DNA from: Octopus vulgaris | Lineage: Eukaryota | Direction of reading: 5' to 3' | Assembly: GCA_951406725.2 (NCBI GenBank) | Contig: OX597819.1 | Span: forward strand, 42,036,001 to 42,100,000 | DNA length: 64,000 nt | Part shown: positions 12,914 through 59,535 of the stretch, piece by piece | How the letters are laid out: every line of letters begins with the position of its first letter | Position numbering within the stretch: the first letter of the stretch is position 1 | Translations under genes and position numbers: made by a program | Notes under the pieces: model-generated | Databases searched by the model: none | Told to the model about the DNA's origin: nothing | What the model saw: the letters and a program-made list of their open reading frames with translations, nothing else

Positions 12914-13046
12914 CTCTAGCTTTCACAGATGGATATAGTTTCTCTGCTTTGTTTAAAAATTTTAACGCTTTTTCCTTTTCGCCATCAGCTATATGTTTTT
13001 CGGCTATCGAAATACACCGTTCACTCTCATCCTTATTGCCCTCCAT
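12914..13046 (-). CDS. DNAJB12: DnaJ homolog subfamily B member 12/14, first coding exon (133 nt)
   Basis: MEGNKDESERCISIAEKHIADGEKEKALKFLNKAEKLYPSVKAR closely matches the DNAJB12/14 N-terminus (MESNKDEAERCI...). It ends at a phase-1 donor G|GTAAC. No downstream exon was recognised in the window. Confidence 0.92.
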
Positions 13047-13898: not shown

Positions 13899-13967
<69 letters not shown>

Positions 13968-14113
13968 GGTTAAGTAATTGAGATTCTAGTGAATTCTAAA
14001 GAATTCACATGAATATGGTCCTTAACTAGGATGCACCGGATATCTATATGGTGTTAACCATACGACAAGTGGGGTGATTATAAATAGGAAAAAGCAACAA
14101 GAATGGATTAAAA

Positions 14114-14200
14114 TCTCGGTACGATCGTTTCGTACGAGGACATCTTTAATAAGCTACAAAAATGCAGTGAATACAGATGGCTCGTACTCATCAGCCGAAA
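14114..14200 (-). ncRNA. Type I hammerhead ribozyme motif
   Basis: TTTCGG-CTGATGA-GTACGAG...CTCGTAC-GAAA-CGATCG-TA-CCGAGA: complete core, stem I, stem II and palindromic stem III. Confidence 0.85.
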
Positions 14201-14269
14201 AAATATCAGAGAATTCCCAAACATCAAAAACATCAAAAGGGGTAGATGTTTGGGAATTCTCTGATATTT

Positions 14270-14357
14270 TTTCGGCTGACGAGTACGAGCCATCTGTATT
14301 CACTGCATTTTTTGTAGCTTATTAAAGATGTCCTCGTACGAAACGATCGTACCGAGA
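14270..14357 (+). ncRNA. Type I hammerhead ribozyme motif
   Basis: TTTCGG-CTGACGA(14276-82)-GTACGAG...CTCGTAC-GAAA(14340-43)-CGATCG-TA-CCGAGA. Predicted cleavage after GUA at 14349-14351. Confidence 0.85.
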
Positions 14358-14384
14358 TTTTAATCCATTCTTGTTGCTTTTTTC

Positions 14385-14424
<40 letters not shown>

Positions 14425-14431
<7 letters not shown>

Positions 14432-15505
14432 GCTCCTACCCCTACGGGCGACAACGGGTCTCTCACTCAGAGTGAAAGGTAGATTGTATGATGCATGTGT
14501 GCGAACTGCCTTGCTTCACGGTAGTGAAACATGGGCCGTGACTGCAGAGGACATGCGTAGACTTGAAAGAAATGAAGCTAGCATGATCCACTGGATCTCT
14601 AATGTCAGTGTGAATGCACGACAGAGTGTAAGCACCCTGAGAGAAATGCTGGACATAAGAAGCATCAGATGTGGTATGCAAGAGCGACGCCTGCGATGGT
14701 ATGGTCATGTACTGCGGATGGATGAGGAGAGATGTGTGAAGAAGTGCCGCTCCCAAACAGTTGAAGGAATCAGGGGGAGAGGTAGACCCAGGAAGACATG
14801 GGATGAGGTAGTCAAGCATGACCTCAGAGCGTTGGGCCTCAGTGAGGCAATGGCGAAGGACCGAGATCTCTGGAGATGTGCTGTGACTGCAAAGACCCGG
14901 GATGCTTCCGGCACCAGTTCCGCATAGCCCCTGCGCATTCAAAGTACCTTGGGTCCCAGAACATCTCGCTGTGCTTGAGGAGACCTGTTGAGTCAAGTGC
15001 ATGTACATGAACATCGAAACAAATGGAAATAGTAGTTGTGATACCTGTGCCGGTGGCACATAAAAAGCACCATCCGAACGTGGCCGATGCCAGTGCCGCC
15101 TCGACTGGCTTCTGTGCCGGTGGCACATAAAAAGCACCATCCAAACGTGGCCAATGCCAGCGCCGCCTCGACTGGCTTCTGTGCCGGTGGCACATAAAAA
15201 GCACCATCCGAACGTGGCCGATGCCAGCGCCGCCTTGGCTGGCTTCCGTGCCGGTGGCACGTTAAAAGCACCAACCGATCGTGGCCGATGCCAGACCCCA
15301 GCCTGGCACCTGTGCAGGTGGCATGTAAAAGGCACCCACTACACTCGCGGAGTGGTTGGCGTTAGGAAGGGCATCCAGCCATAGAAACACTGCCAGATCA
15401 GACTGGAGCCTGGTGCTGCCCCTGGCTTCCCAGACCCCGGTCGAACCGTCCAACCCGTGCTAGTGCGGAAAACGGACGTTAAACGATGATGATGATGATG
15501 ATGAT
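14425..15505 (+). mobile_element. 5'-truncated RTE LINE
   Basis: ORF 14472-14927 (HGSETWA, RRLRWYGHV, RGRGRPRKTW, DRDLWR), a 3' UTR with ~66-bp tandem repeats and a (GAT)n tail. It begins at the end of a (TA)n tract. Confidence 0.95.
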
Positions 15506-16517
15506 ATTAACCCATAAAGCACTGGGATTTGCACTTACATAGCATGGACTGCTGAGCATATTTTATGAAAATGAGACTACCATGCACACATAAAAAACAA
15601 AAAATAGTTAAAATATCTTCTTAGTATAATATAACGGTGGCAAGTTTTACATCATCTGAAAAGTCATTAGTTGAACTATTTGTCCTCTTGCATTCTGGGA
15701 GGTATCAGAGCATTTGAATGACATTAGACCCCAATAAACACCCATAAATTAAATGTGTCTATCTGGGCCACGATTGTGGCCTGTTGACCTGTGCTTGATG
15801 GCCATGATTGTGGCCTGTTGTGCTTTATGTGTTAATAGTTGGGCATAGATATTTATAAAAATGTAACAGAATATGTCTTTAAAATAGTTGAACAGTTCCT
15901 TTCCTAAATACGAATTGTGTAACAGAAATTGCATCATATGTAATTGTCTCTTTTTTCATTGCTACTCAATACATGACTGTCCAATGTATAAATGAATGAC
16001 CATAGGATTACACCTAGAAAGTTCTCCACCAAGGCACAAGTCCAGGCAAGGTCGTTTACTGAAGACCAGCAATCGCCCATACATACCAGCCTCCCCTCTC
16101 CATGCCATCAACATTGCCCAAGGGAAAGGCAAATGTCTATACAGCTTGGTACCAGTAATATTGTAACTCATTTCTACAGCTGAGTCAACTGGAGCAACAT
16201 GAAATAAAGTGTCTTGCTCAAGAACACAACACAGCCTGATCCAGGAATTGAACTCACTACCTCATGACTGTGAGCTGAACACTCTAACCATTGGAGTATA
16301 CACCTTCACTGTCTAATTATGTATCTGTGGTATTGGTTCTCTGGACATTCCTTCTGTGAACTTTTGTTTTTATTTCAGATGACCATCTGATTTAGTATAA
16401 AAATTTGCTTCTGAGGTGATGAGAGAATTCTCTTGATTAGTTATGATACTATATCAGAGGATCTCTCTCTCTCTCTCTCTCTCTCAAATAAAATTTCTTC
16501 TTAAGGTCAGAAATTTT

Positions 16518-19747: not shown

Positions 19748-21100
19748 CAGTGTTTCCCAATTGAATTCATCCCTTTCTCAAATGAATTCATCCTTTTCTC
19801 AAATGAATTCGTCTCTTTGCTATCAAAGCTAATTTGGATCTTAAATAGTTAAAAATTACACACCTATAAGTTTAAACAAACATAAGTGAAAATAAACAAA
19901 AAACTAAACTTAAAACAGTTTAAATTTATTTTAAAACACTTGTAATCATAAATATTTCACAAAACCTTCATATTCAATGCTTGTGGGATGAAAAATGTTT
20001 GATGTTGATCATATCTTGCACAATTTACAGCAGATATTGAATCCATTGTAAGATACATTGCTGTTTTAAAAATATTCATTCTATGGATCATCATGGGCAA
20101 ATTTTCTGATCTGTTGTAGAGATAATTTTTATGAGTCTGTAGATACTGCTTCACAAAAGATTTCAATTCATTGAACATTTCCTCAACAGGTTTAAATATT
20201 GGGGAATAAGGAAGTAGATATTTAAACCGTATGTTGTGGCACAAGATCAATTTCATTGGCACATTTATGGATGTGCACATTGTCCATAATAAATATGACA
20301 GGACCTGATGTAGTCAACAGTGATCTTTGGTGAACATTGATGTAAAAAACTGTTAGATTCAGAAGTTGTGATCTTCTTAAATGGTTCGAATTGGATAAGA
20401 CCTGACGTATCCATAACGGCAATAACGTTTAAGTTTGCCTCTTTAGTAGAAGAGTGATTGGTAATTGCTTGACCTCCATGGTAAGCTCTGCCCATTGACC
20501 TTCAAAATAAAATAGATTGTAAAAATATTTCATAAACAAAAATTTTATATAAGTATTTAGCAAATATAATAATCATTTGTCTTGAAATCCAAATGTTGTA
20601 ATTTGTTTCATCAATATATACACAATGAATGGCCAATCCATTATCTTGAAACCATTTTGCGTAATAACATTGCTTCTTTTTTTGTGTTTTCATTATTTTG
20701 TTCTTGATGGGGAATCATTAATTTTTTCAGAGTGTATCCAAAGCTGTCAAGATAGCAATCAATAGTTGATAATGAAACAGTCAAATCAAATTTCTCTTCT
20801 AAAAGTTCTCTCATTCTTTTCAAAGTTAAAGTTGGGTCCTCATTAATTGATTCTTGTAAAAATTGTTGATGATTTTCCTTGATTTTTTACTGTTGGTGCC
20901 CATGTTTTTTTTCTTTGGAGAATAATCTTTCTGTACAATTGCCTTGACTGTGCTGAAGTTAATATCAAGGGAGCAGGACAATTTCAAATTTTCACTGTTT
21001 CTGGAAGCAGACAATATTCTTTTTTTTTTATTCTGCTTGGATAATTATGTTTTAAATCAGACTTTAATACTAAAGGGATGAATTCAATCAGGAAATACAG
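19748..21100 (-). mobile_element. Full-length but decayed IS630-Tc1-mariner DNA transposon
   Basis: 29-bp imperfect TIRs CAGTGTTTCCCAATTGAATTCATCCCTTT with TA on both sides. Fragmented transposase with an HTH region (LTVSLSTIDCYL), YIDET, IMDNVHIH and LPYSPIFKPVEE. Confidence 0.92.
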
Positions 21101-26817: not shown

Positions 26818-27091
26818 TTATTTTGAATCTTCTAATGAAGTAAGAATTTTGTTGTAAAGAGGTACTTTGTTTTTGTATCCATTGTCAGGTATTGATTTTA
26901 AAAATTCAACATAGTCACTTGGTAAACCGTTTGCCAAGGCTCCTCGCACTATAATATCCTTATACTGGGGAGATGGTTTTCCAAAGTCTTTTTTCAACAG
27001 TAGGTATGTACGGCATTCATATATCACATCGTTGGGATCTTTAACTTTGATGTCAGTAGCATGGTAGATATTTCTGTCAACTCCTTCTTGT
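26818..27091 (-). CDS. GGCT: Gamma-glutamylcyclotransferase, last coding exon
   Basis: Acceptor ttttttcag. Encodes QEGVDRNIY...ECRTYLL...KPSPQYKDIIVRGALANGLPSDYVEFLKSIPDNGY...TAA; the catalytic Glu in QEGV is retained. Confidence 0.95.
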
Positions 27092-28365
27092 CTGAAAAAA
27101 ATAAAGGATCATAAGATATGTGGGAATCTATTGGTTTCAAATTTTGGCACAAGGCCAGCAGTGCTGCAGGAAGTGGGTGGGGCAGGTTGATTAAATTGAC
27201 TCCAGTGCTCATCTGGTACTCATTAGATCAACACAGAAAAGCTGAAAGGCAAAGTCAACCTTGGCAGAATTTGAATTTGAACTCTGAAAATGTCGATGGA
27301 CAAAATGTTATTAAGTATTTTGGCCAGTGTGCTAACAATTCTGCCAGCTTCCCACCTTTCAAATATTCACACAAAACCAGCAATTCTAGGGATGGGGCTA
27401 AGCTGGTTACATCGACTCCAGTGTTCAACTGGTACTTGCTTATCAACCTCAGGAGGATGAAAGGCAAAGCTAACCTCAACAGAATTTGAACTCAGAACAT
27501 AACGATGGATGAAATGCCACTAAGCATCTTGCCTAGTCTGGTATGCTAACAATTCTGCTAGCTCACTGTCCTAATATGTTGGAATATATTGAAAATGCAA
27601 CATTATCAGATAAACCAAGAATTAAGTATTTATTAGGGTACAGGTTTGGGCATGGCTGTGAGTTTAAGAACTTTGCTTCCCAACCACATGGTTTGAGGTT
27701 CAGTTCCACTGCATGGCACCTTAGGCAAATGATAACTGAAATAAGTCTGTTGCATATATATATATATATGCATGTGGTAAGAAGCTTGCTTCCCAACAAC
27801 ATGGTTCCAGGTTCAGTACCACTGTGTGGAACCTTGAGCAAGTGGCCTTTACTATAGCTTTGGGTTGACCAAAGACTTGTGAGTGGATTTGGTAGACGCA
27901 TATCGTATAGGTGTGTGTGTGTTTTTTTGTCTGTTTGTCCCCACCACCATCACTTGACAACCAATGCTGGTGTGTTTATGTCCATATAACTTAGTGGTTC
28001 AGCAAAAGAAACCCAAAGGAATAGGCTTACAAAGACTAATTCCTGCAGTCGATTTGTTCGACTAAATCCCCTAAAGGTGGTGCTCCAGCATGGCTGCAAA
28101 TAAATGACTGAAATAAGTAACAAAATAAAAGAATAAAAGAATATGTGCATGTTTGTGTTTCCTTGTTTTGACTGCATGAGATAGTTGTAAATGAGTGTCA
28201 CTGTCATACAAGCAGTGTAATTTGTTTCTATTCTCCTGTGAAAACATGTCCGATCAAGGTGAAGGTTGGCAACAAGAAGGGTATCTAGCAGTAGAAATTT
28301 GTTGCAAAAGGCTTGTGCATAAACTAAATAGCAGTTAATTAGTTAATTAAACTGATGATGCTTAC

Positions 28366-44700: not shown

Positions 44701-47700
44701 TCATCATCATCATCATCATCATCGTTTAGCGTCCGTTTTCCATGCTAGCATGGGTTGGACGGTTCTACTGGGGTCTGTGAAGCCAGAAGGCTTCATCAGG
44801 CCCAGTCAAATCTGGCAGTGTTTCTACGGCTGGATGCCCTTCCTAACGCCAACCACTCCGTGAGTGTAGTGGGTGCTTTTTACGTGCCACCCGCACTGGT
44901 GCCAGACAGAGCTGGCAAACGGCCATGAACGGATGGTGCTTTTTATGTGCCACCGGCACGAGGGCCAGGCGAGGCTGGCAACGGACACGAAACGGGGCGG
45001 TGCTGGCAACGGTCGCGAAACGGAAAGTTCTCTTACATGCCCCCGGCACTGGTAACACATCTTCAATTTCCATTGATCGATTTCCATTGATCGATTTCGA
45101 TTCTGATCCTCACTTGCCTCAACGGGTCTTCACAAGTAGAGTTTCGACATGCCACCGGCACTGGTAACACATCCGCAATTTCCATTGATCGATTTCGATT
45201 CTGATCCTCACTTGCCTCAACACGTCTTCACAAGTAGAGTTTTGTGTCCCAAGAAGGGAAGGTATGCATACGTAGGCTGGCTCCATCCCATGTAGAAGGC
45301 CACGGGTTATGGACTCACTTGTCCTGCCGGGTCTTCTCGCGCACAGCACACTTCCAGAGGTCTCGGTCTCTAGTCATTTCCTCAGTGAGACCTAAAGTTC
45401 GAAGGTCGTGCTTCACCACCTCGTCCCAGGTTTTCCTGGGTCTGCCTCTTCCACAGGTTCCCTCAACCGCTAGGGTGTGGCACTTTTTCACACAACTATC
45501 TTCATCCATTCTCGCCACATGACCATACCAGCGCAAACGTCTCTCTTGCACACCACAACTGATGCTTCTTAGGTCCAGCTTTTCTCTCAAGGTACTTACA
45601 CTCTGCCGAGTGTGAGTACCGGCATTACACATCCATCGGAGCATACTGGCTTCATTTCTAGCGAGCTTACGCATATCCTCAGCAGTCACGGCCCATGTTT
45701 CACTGCCATGTAGCATGGCTGTTCGTACACACACATCATACAGTCTGCCTTTCACTCTGTGCGAGAGGCCTTTTGTCACCAGCAGAGGTAAGAGCTCTCT
45801 GAACTTTGCCCAAGCTATTCTTACTCTAGCAGTTACACTTTCAGCACACCCGCCCCCGCTGCTGACTTGGTCACCTAGGTAACGGAAACTATCAACTATT
45901 TCTAGTTTTTCTCCCTGGAAAGTGACGGAAGTTGGTCTCAGAGTATTTTCAGTGTTTATTGTTCCTGAGCATCTGCCACATACAAAAACCATCTTCCTAG
46001 TTAGCCTTCCTTTGACATTGCTGCATCTCTTATGTGTCCATAGCTTACACTTGGTGCATCTTATAGAGTTTCTACCTACACCTTTTCTACAGATCGAGCA
46101 GGGCCATCTACCTGAAGGTGTTTGTGATTTGTCTACCTTCCTACTGATTACGACTTTGGTTTTAGCTAGATTGACTCTGAGGCCCTTCAATTCTAATCCT
46201 TGTTTCCACACCTGAAACTTCTCCTCCAGTTCTGATAGCGACTCAGCAATTAGAGCAAGGTCATCAGCATAGAGGAGCTCCCAAGGGCATCCTGTCTTGA
46301 ATTCCTCCGTTATTGCCTGGAGGACTATGATAAATAGGAGGGGGCTGAGTACTGAGCCTTGGTGGACCCCTACCTCTACCCGGAATTCTTCACTGTACTC
46401 ATTTCCAACCCTCACCCTACTAGCAGCGTCCCTATACATGGCCCGCACAGCTCTCACTAACCATTCATCTATCCCTAGTTTCCTCATTGCCCACCAGATA
46501 AGGGATCGGGGGACCCTGTCGAAGGCTTTCTCCATGTCAACAAAAGCCAGGTACAGGGGCTTATCTTTGGCTAGGTATTTCTCCTGCAGCTGCCTTACCA
46601 GGAATATAGCATCAGTAGTACTTTTCCCTGGCACAAACCCAAACTGCATCTCATCTAAACTAACTAACTCTCTCTAATTAGTTGGGCTATGACCCTCTCC
46701 GTAACCTTCATCACCTGATCCAACAGCTTGATACCTCTGTAGTTATTTGTATCTAGGGCATCACCTTTACCTTTGTAGCAGTTGACTATTATACTGCTAC
46801 ACCAGTCATTGGGTATGACCCCTTTGTGTATCACCTGATTAACTATACGGGTGACTAGGCTATAGCCGACACTACCAGACATTTTGAGCATCTCTGCAGT
46901 GATTCCTGATGGGCCTGGGGCTTTCCCTGTCTTCATGCTTCTAATTGCCTTAGCTACCACGGAACTATCAACTCGGATAGCTGGTCCCTCTGTTGGGTCA
47001 ACATTCGGCAGACTCTCTTTATCCCATTCATTTTCTTCATTCAGCAACCTTTCATAGTGGCATCTCCAAACCTCTCTCTTTGCATCCTCATTTAGCGCAA
47101 GTGAACCATCTTCCATGCGAACACACTTCTCTCCTACCACATCACGATTCTCTCTCACACACTGTCTTGCAACACGAAACACCTCCAGTCTTTGGTCCTC
47201 ACGGCGCAGAACATTGGCAAATTTTTTCTTATCTGCTTCCCCTCTGGCTAAATAAACCTGTCTCCTAGCTTCTCTTTTGGCAGTCTGATACAATTCCCTG
47301 CTACCCCCATTTTTCCAGACCTTCCAAGCCTGTCTCTTTTCTCTAATAGCCCTGTCTACAATATTGTTCCACCACCACGTTATTCTAGGTCGAGAGGGGA
47401 CTTTGCACCAGCCACAGATCTGGTCAGTGGCTCTCAGCAGGTTGTCCCTTAGAAACGTCCAGCTGTCTTCTACCCCCTGTGATGCTCTATCCCCTTCTAC
47501 TTCGTCAGAGGCTTCAAGTAATATGTCCCTAAATCTCTGTCCATTTGCAGGATCTTTAAGCTTCCAGATCCTTCTTCTCCATATTTGTCGTCTTCTGGTT
47601 GTCCTCCTAGTCCTGATCCTAAAGTCACTAACTACCAGTTTATGTTGTTGGGTACATTCTTCACCTGGGAAGGTTTTGGCATTTATAAGCAGCCATCTCT

Positions 47701-48298
47701 CCCTTTGCCTTGCAAGGATGTAGTCAATTTGGCTGGTATGTTGGCCCGATTGGTAAGTGACTAGGTGGCTGGTAGGTTTCCTGAAGTTAGTGTTGCAAAT
47801 CATAAGATTATTTGCATCGCAGAACTCCAACAGCCTGGTTCCCTCCTCGTTGCAGGAGCCATAGCCATAGCCTCCATGTACGCCATGGAAGCCCCCAGCA
47901 TTGAAGTCACCAGCCACAAAGATAAGGTCTCTGTCGTTCGTCAACGAGGTAGTCTGCAGTAGAGTGTCATAGAATCGGTCTTTCTGTCCATCGGGTAGCC
48001 CCGACTGAGGAGCATAGGCTGATATAATAGTTGCTAAACTATGATGAAGCACTAATCTAATCTTAAGTATTCTGTCACATACTCTGATTACCTCAATTAC
48101 TTTATCTACCCATTTCTCAGCGATAAGTATACCCACGCCACCAACCCCGTCAGTGTTCCCTGCCCAGAAAATCTTGTACCTGCGTTCCTTGCCTGTGAGG
48201 AACCTAGCTGATCCTCCTCTCCACCTTATTTCTTGCATGCAACATATATCCACACATCTCCGTTCAAGCATCTCGACTATCTCACCAGACCTACCTTT
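44701..48298 (-). mobile_element. Near-complete RTE-clade LINE (APE endonuclease + RT)
   Basis: ORF 46664-48271 (QEIRW, SAYAPQ, AGDFN, SQIDYIL, NYRGIKLL) and ORF 45315-46649 (QFGF, DMEKAFD, GVHQGSVLSP, LYADD). 3' UTR repeats and a (GAT)n tail; TA repeats on both flanks. Confidence 0.97.
45315..48271 (-). pseudogene. RTE endonuclease-reverse transcriptase ORF broken by one frameshift
   Basis: An extra 4-nt unit in AAACTAACTAACTC near 46657-46668 separates two long open frames. Confidence 0.85.
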
Positions 48299-48517
48299 AT
48301 ATATATATATATATATATATATGTACTTCTAATATAGGATGATGAAAATGATGATAAAATTTTTTCAAAAAACATTTCATCAAGTGGCCAGCATATTAAA
48401 GTAAACAATTACAAATAAGGGCAAAATAAAAAAATTTCTATTCAGGGTACTTATGACTTTTGATTCTGCTTTTTTCCCATGGGTGCTTGTAAGCATTTCA
48501 TTTATTTCTTATCATAT

Positions 48518-54352: not shown

Positions 54353-54609
54353 TCATGCTTTTAAATTCATACCAAGTTCACTGGTAACAAATGTTCTCAT
54401 GATGTTTATCAGTTCCTTATGGACACTTGGATGGGACTGCACATTACGTAAGAGATTGGGACCAAATTGAATAGCTGCATTCACTAACGCATGTTTAACT
54501 TTTGAGCATAATAACTCCTTTTTTTCTTCTGACATTTCACAAATGATCTGAGAAACAGGTTTAAAATTCTTGGCCATTCCTGATGCTGCTAATCCACCAA
54601 CTGCACCAC
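54353..54609 (-). CDS. C19orf12: C19orf12 (Nazo-like) homolog, last exon
   Basis: Acceptor tttttttag. GAVGGLAASGMAKNFKPVSQIICEM...FVTSELGMNLKA* matches [26 protein letters not shown]...YVTKEL. Confidence 0.92.
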
Positions 54610-54944
54610 CTAAAAAAAATATACATACAAATACAATTATTTTACAGAAGACTTTCATTAAATATCAGACATTTTTTTTTTAACAACTGAACTCTAATGA
54701 TTTGTTGACATCTGGTATTTCATTATGCAACCAAAATATACTATAAAGTACATTAAATGTTTTTATAAGTCAACACCACGTCCTACTGTGTTAGCAGTGC
54801 ATTTTACATTATTTTGCTAAGGTTATTTCTGTGGGTATTCTATAGAAATTTTAGCTAGCGCCGATTTTTGCTACATTTCATATCGAGACATCAGATGTAG
54901 ATACACAATTAGATCAAAGCCTACTTTTGGCATTATACATTACC

Positions 54945-58301: not shown

Positions 58302-58347
58302 TTAAATCTATTAATTTCTCAGAAATAATATGATATTTACAACTTAC

Positions 58348-58509
58348 CAATAGCAAGTCCAGGGGGTCCAAGGAACAGACCTCCAACAAATGCTGTGATT
58401 CCAGTTAATGCAGCACCCTTCATGCTTTCATTGATAGTAACAAAAATCTCTTTATCATTGGATAGAATACACAGTAAGTCTAAAATCTCTCGATTTTTAA
58501 GTATTGAAG
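58348..58509 (-). CDS. C19orf12: C19orf12 homolog, internal exon (162 nt, phase 1/1)
   Basis: SILKNREILDLLCILS...SMKGAALTGITAFVGGLFLGPPGLAIG glycine-zipper region, bounded by ttttag and GTAAGT. Confidence 0.92.
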
Positions 58510-59535
58510 CTAAAAGAAAATGAAAAACCAAAGAAACAATAAAATATGTTGTGAAATACAAAAAATAATAATGACAAGACATTACATAACATGCTTATAT
58601 TTTGCAATTGACATAAAACTCATGTTCACATTAAACAAAACATCAGCTGTGGTTCACAGTTGACATAATATAAAGATGGGTCACCGATGATGATGTTTCA
58701 TTTCTTAAACTACCTCCATTTATTCTTGTTTACCATGATACCTTCAGAGAGAAGGATTTTCAACATCGTCATCATCATCATAGTTAAATGTCTGCTTTCC
58801 ATGCTGACATAGGTTGGATGGTTTGACTGAGGACTGGCAAGCCAGTTGGCTGCACCAGGTTCCAATCTCATCTGGCAAGGTTTCTACTGCTGGATGCCCT
58901 TCCTAATGCCAACCACTCTGAGTGTATTGGGTGCTTTATATGTGCCACTGACATGAGGGCTAGTCAGATGGCACTGGCATCAACCACACTTCAATGGTGC
59001 CTTTTACATGCCACCAGCATGGGAGCCAATCAGGTGGCACTGGTAATGACCATGCTTGAATGATACTTTTTACATGCCACCAGCATGGGAGTCAGTCAGG
59101 TGACACTGGTAATGACTACACTCAAATAGTGCTTTTTACGTGCCACCAGCATGGAAGCCAGTCAGGCGGCACTGGCTATTCATTTCCATCTATTATCTCC
59201 ACCCATAATTTCTGGGAGAGTGATGGCAGTAGACTCTTCATGCACTTCTTCCATGGGTTCCTATCAGAAGCAACCCTCAGTAAACCTCCCAGCTGGATTT
59301 CCATGTATGACCAACTGAGTCTAGGGATATTACCTACTTCTTTACTACCCACAAGGGGCTAAACATAGAGGGGACAAACAAGGACAGACAAATGGATTAA
59401 GTCGATTATATTGACCCCAGTACATAACTGGTACTTATTTAATTTTCAGAATCTGATCAAAGGTTGTTCAATTAGAAAAGATAAGAGGAAACTTTTCAAA
59501 TATAAATAAAGTAAAAGTAAACAAAAATAAACATA

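What the first reader, a model, noticed from the sequence alone, without database searches (positions are those of the whole stretch)
14085..14387. Palindrome holding two intact, outward-facing hammerhead ribozymes 1 kb upstream of DNAJB12
Seen: each arm has stem I (TTTCGG/CCGAGA), CUGANGA, a long stem II (GTACGAG/CTCGTAC), GAAA, palindromic CGATCG and a GUA site. The only substitution between arms is at the freely variable N of CUGANGA. Established: type I hammerheads with short palindromic stem III are typical of Penelope-like pseudo-LTRs and animal retrozymes and cleave as dimers. Inference: this is a young non-autonomous PLE-derived unit. A transcript from either direction carries one ribozyme plus its antisense, so it could self-cleave or fold into ~140 bp of dsRNA, possibly limiting read-through into the DNAJB12 promoter.
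Basis: partly seen in the sequence, partly recalled or inferred. Interest (0 to 1): 0.75.

Follow-up and report, generated by a model that had tools for sequence, protein, structure and literature searches.

The report
Head-to-head Penelope retrotransposon stub in octopus
This palindrome is two cut-off ends of a young jumping gene joined back to back inside a TA repeat; each end carries that element's hammerhead ribozyme motif, many similar stubs lie across the genome, and it likely has no role for the neighbouring DNAJB12 gene.

Summary
The palindrome and both hammerhead motifs are real, but the insertion spans 13967-14387, not 14085-14387: the left arm carries a further ~118-nt "tail". It is a 5'-truncated, head-to-head copy of a young Penelope-like retrotransposon (Hydra-clade motifs; intact 1072-aa RT/GIY-YIG ORFs in the genome) inserted in (TA)n. 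A 25-mer of the ribozyme has 352 exact genomic hits, 54 of the first 100 in outward-facing pairs; this locus's central junction is unique, so it does not spread as a unit. Ribozyme stems covary across subfamilies and fold best as dimers, but in a read-through transcript the hairpin wins by ~120 kcal/mol, so self-cleavage here is unlikely. Nothing supports control of DNAJB12 (ATG 13046, 921 bp away). The informative by-product: in 70 of 72 head-to-head pairs from two subfamilies one arm ends ~36 nt and the other ~155 nt past the cleavage site, and arms share a haplotype (314 of 322 sites), pointing to priming on both target strands. Inverted ends with a one-sided tail are known; the scan noted a similar stub elsewhere in this genome.

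The parts
13902..13966 (.). (TA)n target microsatellite, left side
   Evidence: sequence
13967..14084 (-). ~118-nt 'tail' of the left arm: copy of the parent's pLTR-to-ORF junction, ending at the long (L) end, 55 nt before the parent's ATG
   Evidence: 97% match to 5' UTR of full-length copies L045/L046; end class shared by about half of all arms
14085..14247 (-). left arm: 5'-truncated pLTR end, including a 9-nt duplication at 14221-14238
14114..14200 (-). type I hammerhead motif (CUGAUGA), predicted cut 14120/14119
14245..14247 (.). inversion junction, 3-nt microhomology; unique in the genome
   Evidence: sequence against parent; one hit genome-wide with up to 1 mismatch
14245..14387 (+). 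right arm: 5'-truncated pLTR end stopping at the short (S) end, 36 nt past the cut site
   Evidence: 100% identical over 143 nt to at least 38 other places
14270..14357 (+). type I hammerhead motif (CUGACGA), predicted cut 14351/14352
14388..14425 (.). (TA)n target microsatellite, right side
   Evidence: sequence
12915..13046 (-). first coding exon of DNAJB12 (neighbour, not part of the element)

Best explanation
The 421-bp insert is a 5'-truncated, head-to-head copy of the end of a young Penelope-like retrotransposon with Hydra-clade motifs, sitting in a (TA)n repeat, and it likely arose when the element's enzyme primed reverse transcription from both strands of the target. Shown: both arms are the element's terminal repeat with its hammerhead; one arm stops at the short end (+36), the other at the long end (+153); the junction is a unique 3-nt microhomology. 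Inferred: the GIY-YIG domain nicks both strands of (TA)n, each 3' end starts cDNA at a different internal site of the element RNA (both sites carry short UA motifs that could pair with the target), both cDNAs stop early and are joined by microhomology. The ribozymes are passengers whose selection acts in the parent element; if this locus is read through, the RNA would fold into a ~140-bp hairpin that buries the ribozyme, so dsRNA rather than cleavage is the predicted product.
For: Family: 1035 first-look candidates, 40 scored, nearly all 100% identical; 352 exact 25-mer hits, control 0. Parent: open 1090/1091-codon frames with hammerheads 209 nt upstream of the ATG and ~1.3 kb downstream of the stop. 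Hydra motifs RWR (RWK in the sister subfamily), DKT, CxCx5C, CxxC, CxH, no CCHH (against PMC8557442 section 11). Orientation: 27 of 27 close pairs among 100 listed hits face outward. End rule: 34 of 36 pairs and 36 of 36 in a sister subfamily are one short plus one long. All 72 ends of the first set and 70 of 72 of the second abut (TA)5 or more. Arms agree at 314 of 322 polymorphic sites against 210 expected; one locus (L005) joins two different haplotypes. The longer arm is the L arm in 16, the S arm in 12, equal in 6 of 34, against a simple fold-back of one tail-bearing cDNA. A related enzyme cuts and extends both strands and starts at two internal sites that bound the tail (PMC11167929). 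Folding: dimer optimum is the active double hammerhead, -60.4 against -54.4 kcal/mol for two monomers; forcing the ribozyme in the full palindrome costs ~120 kcal/mol.
Against: No biochemistry and no RNA data for this locus. Two pairs break the rule (L036 long/long, L046 short/short). Pfam gave no RT or GIY-YIG hit for the parent protein at E<=0.01 and the PDB search was blank; RT identity rests on motifs and a 24% alignment (E 1e-5) to a Pfam-positive PLE ORF. Hydra placement is by motifs, with no tree. In vitro the anole enzyme showed no strand preference of start site and no target homology, so the strict pairing is not explained by published data. Same-haplotype arms could also come from conversion between arms after insertion.
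Confidence: 0.88

Rival explanations
1. Same element, different route: the palindrome is made by fold-back self-priming of one cDNA or of an antisense template (as proposed for rotifer Penelope elements), or from two read-through RNAs of a source locus that already has one short and one long end.
For: Arms share haplotype; 6 of 34 pairs have near-equal arms, one a perfect palindrome (L012); proposed in PMC3846280 (passages); 23 of 36 short ends in the sister subfamily share one non-templated junction, which could be inherited from source loci.
Against: The tail-less arm is the longer one in 12 of 34 pairs, by up to 1 kb, which a copy of a tail-bearing first strand cannot give; L005 joins two haplotypes; the shared junction occurs on two sequence variants.
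Confidence: 0.25
2. The palindrome has been co-opted to regulate DNAJB12, by cleaving or by silencing read-through RNA near its promoter.
For: It lies 921 bp upstream of the ATG; both cores are intact; a transcript would form long dsRNA.
Against: Near-identical to hundreds of copies, so too young to show selection; 24 of 34 pairs also keep enough of both arms to span the ribozyme; the one substitution is a CpG transition; ribozyme fold is buried in the hairpin; the site is flanked by other repeats and the nearest upstream same-strand exon found is 12.4 kb away.
Confidence: 0.05
3. It is a self-amplifying non-autonomous unit (retrozyme or MITE-like palindrome).
For: Short, non-coding, inverted ends, hammerheads; retrozymes derive from PLE repeats (bioRxiv 10.64898/2026.07.22.740005, abstract and first part).
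Against: The junction occurs once; the other pairs have different spacings, 58-6595 nt; no direct tandem units among 100 listed hits.
Confidence: 0.03
4. The palindrome at this locus is an assembly artefact (fold-back chimera).
For: All small differences fall in the left arm and two are homopolymer gaps; no read test was obtained (raw runs did not cover the region).
Against: The arms are asymmetric in exactly the family-wide way (one short, one long end), end in different unique flanks, and a chimera would mirror flank as well.
Confidence: 0.04

Closest known systems
Hydra-clade Penelope-like elements (Craig et al. 2021, PMC8557442; includes Hydra-1_Obim from Octopus bimaculoides)
   Same: RT then C-terminal GIY-YIG-type domain, RWK/RWR, DKT, CxCx5C linker, CxxC and CxH, no CCHH, hammerhead near the 3' end, (TA)n targets; a 5'-truncated inverted copy is listed for Penelope-13_HM.
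   Different: Unit ~4.7 kb and ORF 1072 aa with two Asn-rich inserts, against <3 kb and ~710 aa in relatives; ribozyme has a 57-60 nt stem-loop II and differs in sequence from the Hydra-1_oBim motif printed in File S2; tail ~118 nt against 30-40 bp.
Inverted pLTR insertions with a one-sided tail (PMC8557442 Fig. 2 legend; PMC3846280; tail explained by two RT start sites in PMC11167929)
   Same: Head-to-head arrangement, tail on one end only, AT-rich target.
   Different: Here counted: 70 of 72 pairs one short/one long, arms from one haplotype, and both ends at short UA motifs, whereas the anole enzyme's start sites were reported as non-homologous to the target. I found no such count in searches of the held library.
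PLE hammerheads (Cervera and de la Pena 2014, PMC4209133)
   Same: Type I, long helix II, G10.1-C11.1, palindromic helix III, dimer fold; they already noted dual motifs 100-700 bp apart on opposite strands.
   Different: No unpaired nucleotide between A9 and G10.1; stem I of 6 bp; 8-nt palindrome.
Animal non-LTR retrozymes
   Same: Non-coding, PLE-derived, type I hammerhead.
   Different: Retrozymes are direct tandem repeats; this is an inverted, single-junction insertion.

Membership tests
Type I hammerhead ribozyme | Core CUGANGA / GAAA / UH with G10.1-C11.1 | tested here: met
   Invariant in 15 of 15 aligned variants except N7 and C11.1-to-U wobble
Type I hammerhead ribozyme | Three stems with covariation | tested here: met
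   93.8% of cells paired, 6 pairs with changes on both sides (2 in stem I, 1 in stem III); slid controls 25-52%; sequences are related, so few independent events
Type I hammerhead ribozyme | Match to an Rfam hammerhead model | tested here: not met
   No hit at E<=1; the long loop II and short stem III probably fall outside the models (inference)
Type I hammerhead ribozyme | Self-cleavage | not testable with these tools
   Only folding: monomer stem III probability 0.001, dimer optimum is the active fold; none of 30 ORF-start copies begins at the cut site
Endonuclease-positive Penelope-like element | Single ORF with RT and GIY-YIG endonuclease in the parent | tested here: met
   Open frame with YRDD and IIY..YVG motifs; RT aligns to a Pfam RVT_1/GIY-YIG-positive ORF; no direct Pfam hit
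Endonuclease-positive Penelope-like element | pLTRs with hammerhead, partial tandem and inverted copies, optional tail | tested here: met
Hydra clade | RWK, DKT, CxCx5C linker, CxxC and CxH, no CCHH | tested here: met
   RWR at 56 (RWK in 3 of 5 aligned ORFs), DKT 143, CNCRIKSKC 951, CQLC 1048, CIH 1079
Hydra clade | Insertion into (TA)n | tested here: met
   72 of 72 and 70 of 72 ends
Hydra clade | Placement in the Hydra clade of an RT tree | not tested
   No named Hydra reference proteins were fetched
Non-LTR retrozyme | Direct tandem repeats each with a hammerhead | tested here: not met
   Inverted arrangement; 0 direct close pairs among 100 listed hits
Self-amplifying palindromic unit (MITE-like) | Many copies of the same whole unit | tested here: not met
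   Junction found once

The most novel reading that the evidence does not exclude
These octopus insertions record an obligatory asymmetric twin-priming step of Penelope-like elements: a dimeric enzyme primes one target strand at the short site and the other at the long site, ~120 nt apart, using short UA-to-(TA)n pairing and sometimes a telomerase-like two-base realignment, on RNA that the hammerhead has not cut. This would explain inverted pLTRs and the one-sided tail in one mechanism and can be tested with the intact ORFs.
Probability: 0.45. Interest if true: 0.6.

Novelty: new member of a known kind. Interest (0 to 1): 0.3.

Why it matters
As a locus it matters little: it is one of many retrotransposon stubs, and the result warns against reading such double-ribozyme palindromes as RNA switches. 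As a family it offers a clean, young set of insertions for an open question, how Penelope-like elements make inverted ends and tails: the 70-of-72 short/long rule, shared haplotypes and long tail give sharp predictions for an in vitro system like the one built for the anole element. It also implies many potential long dsRNA hairpins in this genome.

Tried and rejected
Rfam scan: no hammerhead hit; miRNA hits are hairpin artefacts below gathering score. Laying public runs: three raw DNA runs gave 2, 1 and 0 reads even on high-copy repeats, so no test; contigs of run X1 hold the family but no listed piece spans the locus. The presence of this junction in other individuals, and any transcription, remain untested. 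PDB and Pfam searches of the parent protein were blank. A footprint of ribozyme cleavage was sought as 5' ends at the cut site: 0 of 30 ORF-start copies (30 of 40 listed matches examined, some are overlapping views of one locus). Selection on N7 rejected (CpG transition, n=1). Search by sequence in earlier findings returned an unrelated bacterial hairpin, not used. Rows left out of the pair count: L015 (nested three-ribozyme structure) and duplicate views of the same locus; a four-ribozyme unit in the sister subfamily was counted once by its outer ends. No structure or complex prediction was run.

Full report
Observation. The window holds an inverted repeat with arms at 14089-14225 and 14245-14382. 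Each arm reads, outward, as a type I hammerhead: 6-bp stem I, CUGA(C/U)GA, 7-bp stem II closing a 43-nt insert with further helices, GAA, the 8-nt palindrome ACGAUCGU, and a GUA site (predicted cuts 14351/14352 on + and 14120/14119 on -). A descriptor scan of both strands of the 64-kb window found only these two. Rfam gave no hammerhead match at E<=1. The insert is longer than stated: the left arm continues to 13967, and both ends abut (TA)n. The neighbour is DNAJB12: a 44-aa exon starting at 13046 (-) is identical to Octopus records, which also indicates an octopus genome (inference).

Family and parent. The right arm gave 1035 first-look candidates in the genome; 40 were scored and nearly all were 100% identical over 143 nt. 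A 25-mer of the ribozyme has 352 exact hits against 0 for the control. Upstream of longer copies lies ~1.3 kb of 3' UTR and an ORF; searching with its end found open frames of 1090 and 1091 codons. In these, one ribozyme lies 209 nt before the ATG and, in L046, another 4.7 kb further on. The left-arm extension matches the stretch between the 5' ribozyme and the ATG: it is the PLE 'tail'. The protein has YRDD, IIY..YVG, RWR (RWK in the sister subfamily), DKT, CxCx5C, CxxC and CxH and no CCHH, the features given for the Hydra clade in PMC8557442 (sections 3 and 11, passages, and part 2 of 59 of the supplement read), which lists one Octopus family with a different ribozyme. Pfam and PDB were blank for this protein; it aligns weakly to a Pfam-positive PLE ORF and at 35-42% to 28 unnamed proteins of 630-770 aa, one of which was compared in full and has the same layout without the Asn-rich inserts. 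No tree was built, and the other 58 parts of that supplement, which may hold consensus sequences, were not read.

Is the ribozyme real? Across 15 variants from related subfamilies the core is kept and 93.8% of cells pair, with both-sided changes in stem I (two pairs), stem III and the stem II extension; slid controls reach 25-52%. The variants are related, so this is a handful of events. In folding, a monomer does not form stem III (probability 0.001), whereas two copies fold optimally into the active double hammerhead (-60.4 against -54.4 kcal/mol). That fits PLE hammerheads, which cleave weakly and as dimers, and for which opposite-strand pairs 100-700 bp apart were already noted (PMC4209133, parts 1-2 of 4 read). 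So selection on the ribozyme acts in the element lineage. None of 30 ORF-start copies begins at the cut site, in line with the finding that cleavage is not needed for insertion in vitro (PMC11167929, parts 1-2 of 4 and passages).

How the palindrome arose. Of the first 100 listed exact hits, 54 lie in 27 close pairs, all outward-facing, none direct or inward. I examined those 27 plus 9 other pairs met earlier, leaving out one nested locus (L015): 34 of 36 have one arm ending at +31 to +42 and the other at +152 to +161 after the cut site (binomial p 1e-8 against independent choice). In a sister subfamily (1032 exact hits) all 36 head-to-head units among the first 100 hits follow the rule, at the same two positions. 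All 72 ends of the first set and 70 of 72 of the second abut (TA)5 or more. Arms of one locus differ at 0.6% of sites against 2.1% between loci and agree at 314 of 322 polymorphic sites against 210 expected, with one locus joining two haplotypes. The longer arm is the tail-bearing one in 16, the tail-less one in 12, equal in 6 of 34, which argues against simple fold-back of one tail-bearing cDNA. Both end sites sit at short UA motifs in the element RNA that could pair with a (TA)n primer (inference). Together with the published result that a PLE enzyme cuts and extends both target strands and starts at two internal sites bounding the tail, the likeliest route is priming from both nicks, one at each site, with early termination and microhomology joining. 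The steps are inferred, not shown. Self-priming on an antisense template, proposed in PMC3846280 (passages), remains a rival.

What the locus does. Its junction occurs once in 2.8 Gb, so it is a dead-end product, not a spreading unit, and it lacks the direct tandem units of retrozymes (bioRxiv 10.64898/2026.07.22.740005, part 1 of 5 read). In a transcript from either side the antisense arm comes first; the hairpin folds at -274 kcal/mol and forcing the ribozyme costs about 120 kcal/mol. dsRNA is therefore the predicted product, if the site is transcribed at all, which I could not test (one search gave no coverage). Of 34 pairs, 24 keep both arms long enough to span the ribozyme, so two intact ribozymes need no special explanation. 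The nearest upstream same-strand exon found ends 12.4 kb away. Nothing points to control of DNAJB12.

Novelty. The kind is known: Hydra-type PLE, pLTR hammerhead, inverted 5'-truncated copy, tail on one end, (TA)n target. The scan itself noted a similar stub elsewhere in this genome (e1-9549524), seen after my reading was formed. What I did not find in five literature searches (open-access library only, older subscription papers on Penelope structure are not held) is a count of the short/long rule, the haplotype sharing, a tail of ~120 nt, or UA pairing at both starts. These make the family a useful test bed for PLE insertion, but the locus itself is ordinary. Interest 0.3; new member of a known kind.

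Noticed in passing
L115-L151 (sister subfamily, short ends): 23 of 36 short ends carry a non-templated G two bases past the usual end, as a two-base repeat would give; 5 stop at the usual end and 4 follow the template. Could be telomerase-like realignment at the start of reverse transcription or inheritance from source loci.
   Followed up: partly
L046 (G000:C9:84175500-84184500) and L045: Intact 1072-aa ORFs with two Asn-rich inserts (27% N over residues 500-930) absent from ~710-aa relatives; similar inserts were described in rotifer Penelope elements.
   Followed up: partly
G000 genome-wide: A sister subfamily about 75% identical in DNA and 69% in protein has 1032 exact hits for a 26-mer of its ribozyme, with several long ORFs.
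   Followed up: partly
L087 and L089: Two ORF-start copies begin exactly at the long-end site right after (TA)n, as a unit-length copy of a circular or tandem template might.
   Followed up: no
P0066: An annotated Octopus sinensis ankyrin/RING protein begins with ~200 aa 66% identical to the N-terminus of the element's protein: gene-model chimera or real exonisation.
   Followed up: partly
L005 (G000:C9:111260150-111263292): The two arms carry different family haplotypes (7 of 23 shared polymorphic sites differ), suggesting two templates in one insertion.
   Followed up: partly
L034:7418-9397, L036:8447-9899, L053:5112-5241: Other Penelope-like families with their own hammerheads or ORFs lie next to copies of this one; their stem III palindromes differ but stay palindromic.
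   Followed up: no
window 14426-15510: 5'-truncated LINE end with three 67-bp tandem units and a (GAT)n tail directly right of the insertion; a longer copy with endonuclease, RT and PHD matches lies at 45315-48328 (-). The label RTE-like is recalled.
   Followed up: no
window 26818-27108 (-); 54353-54664 and 58337-58594 (-); 19957-20886 (-): Last exon of an AIG2-like (gamma-glutamylcyclotransferase-type, name recalled) gene; exons of a C19orf12-like gene; remains of a Tc1/mariner-type transposase.
   Followed up: no
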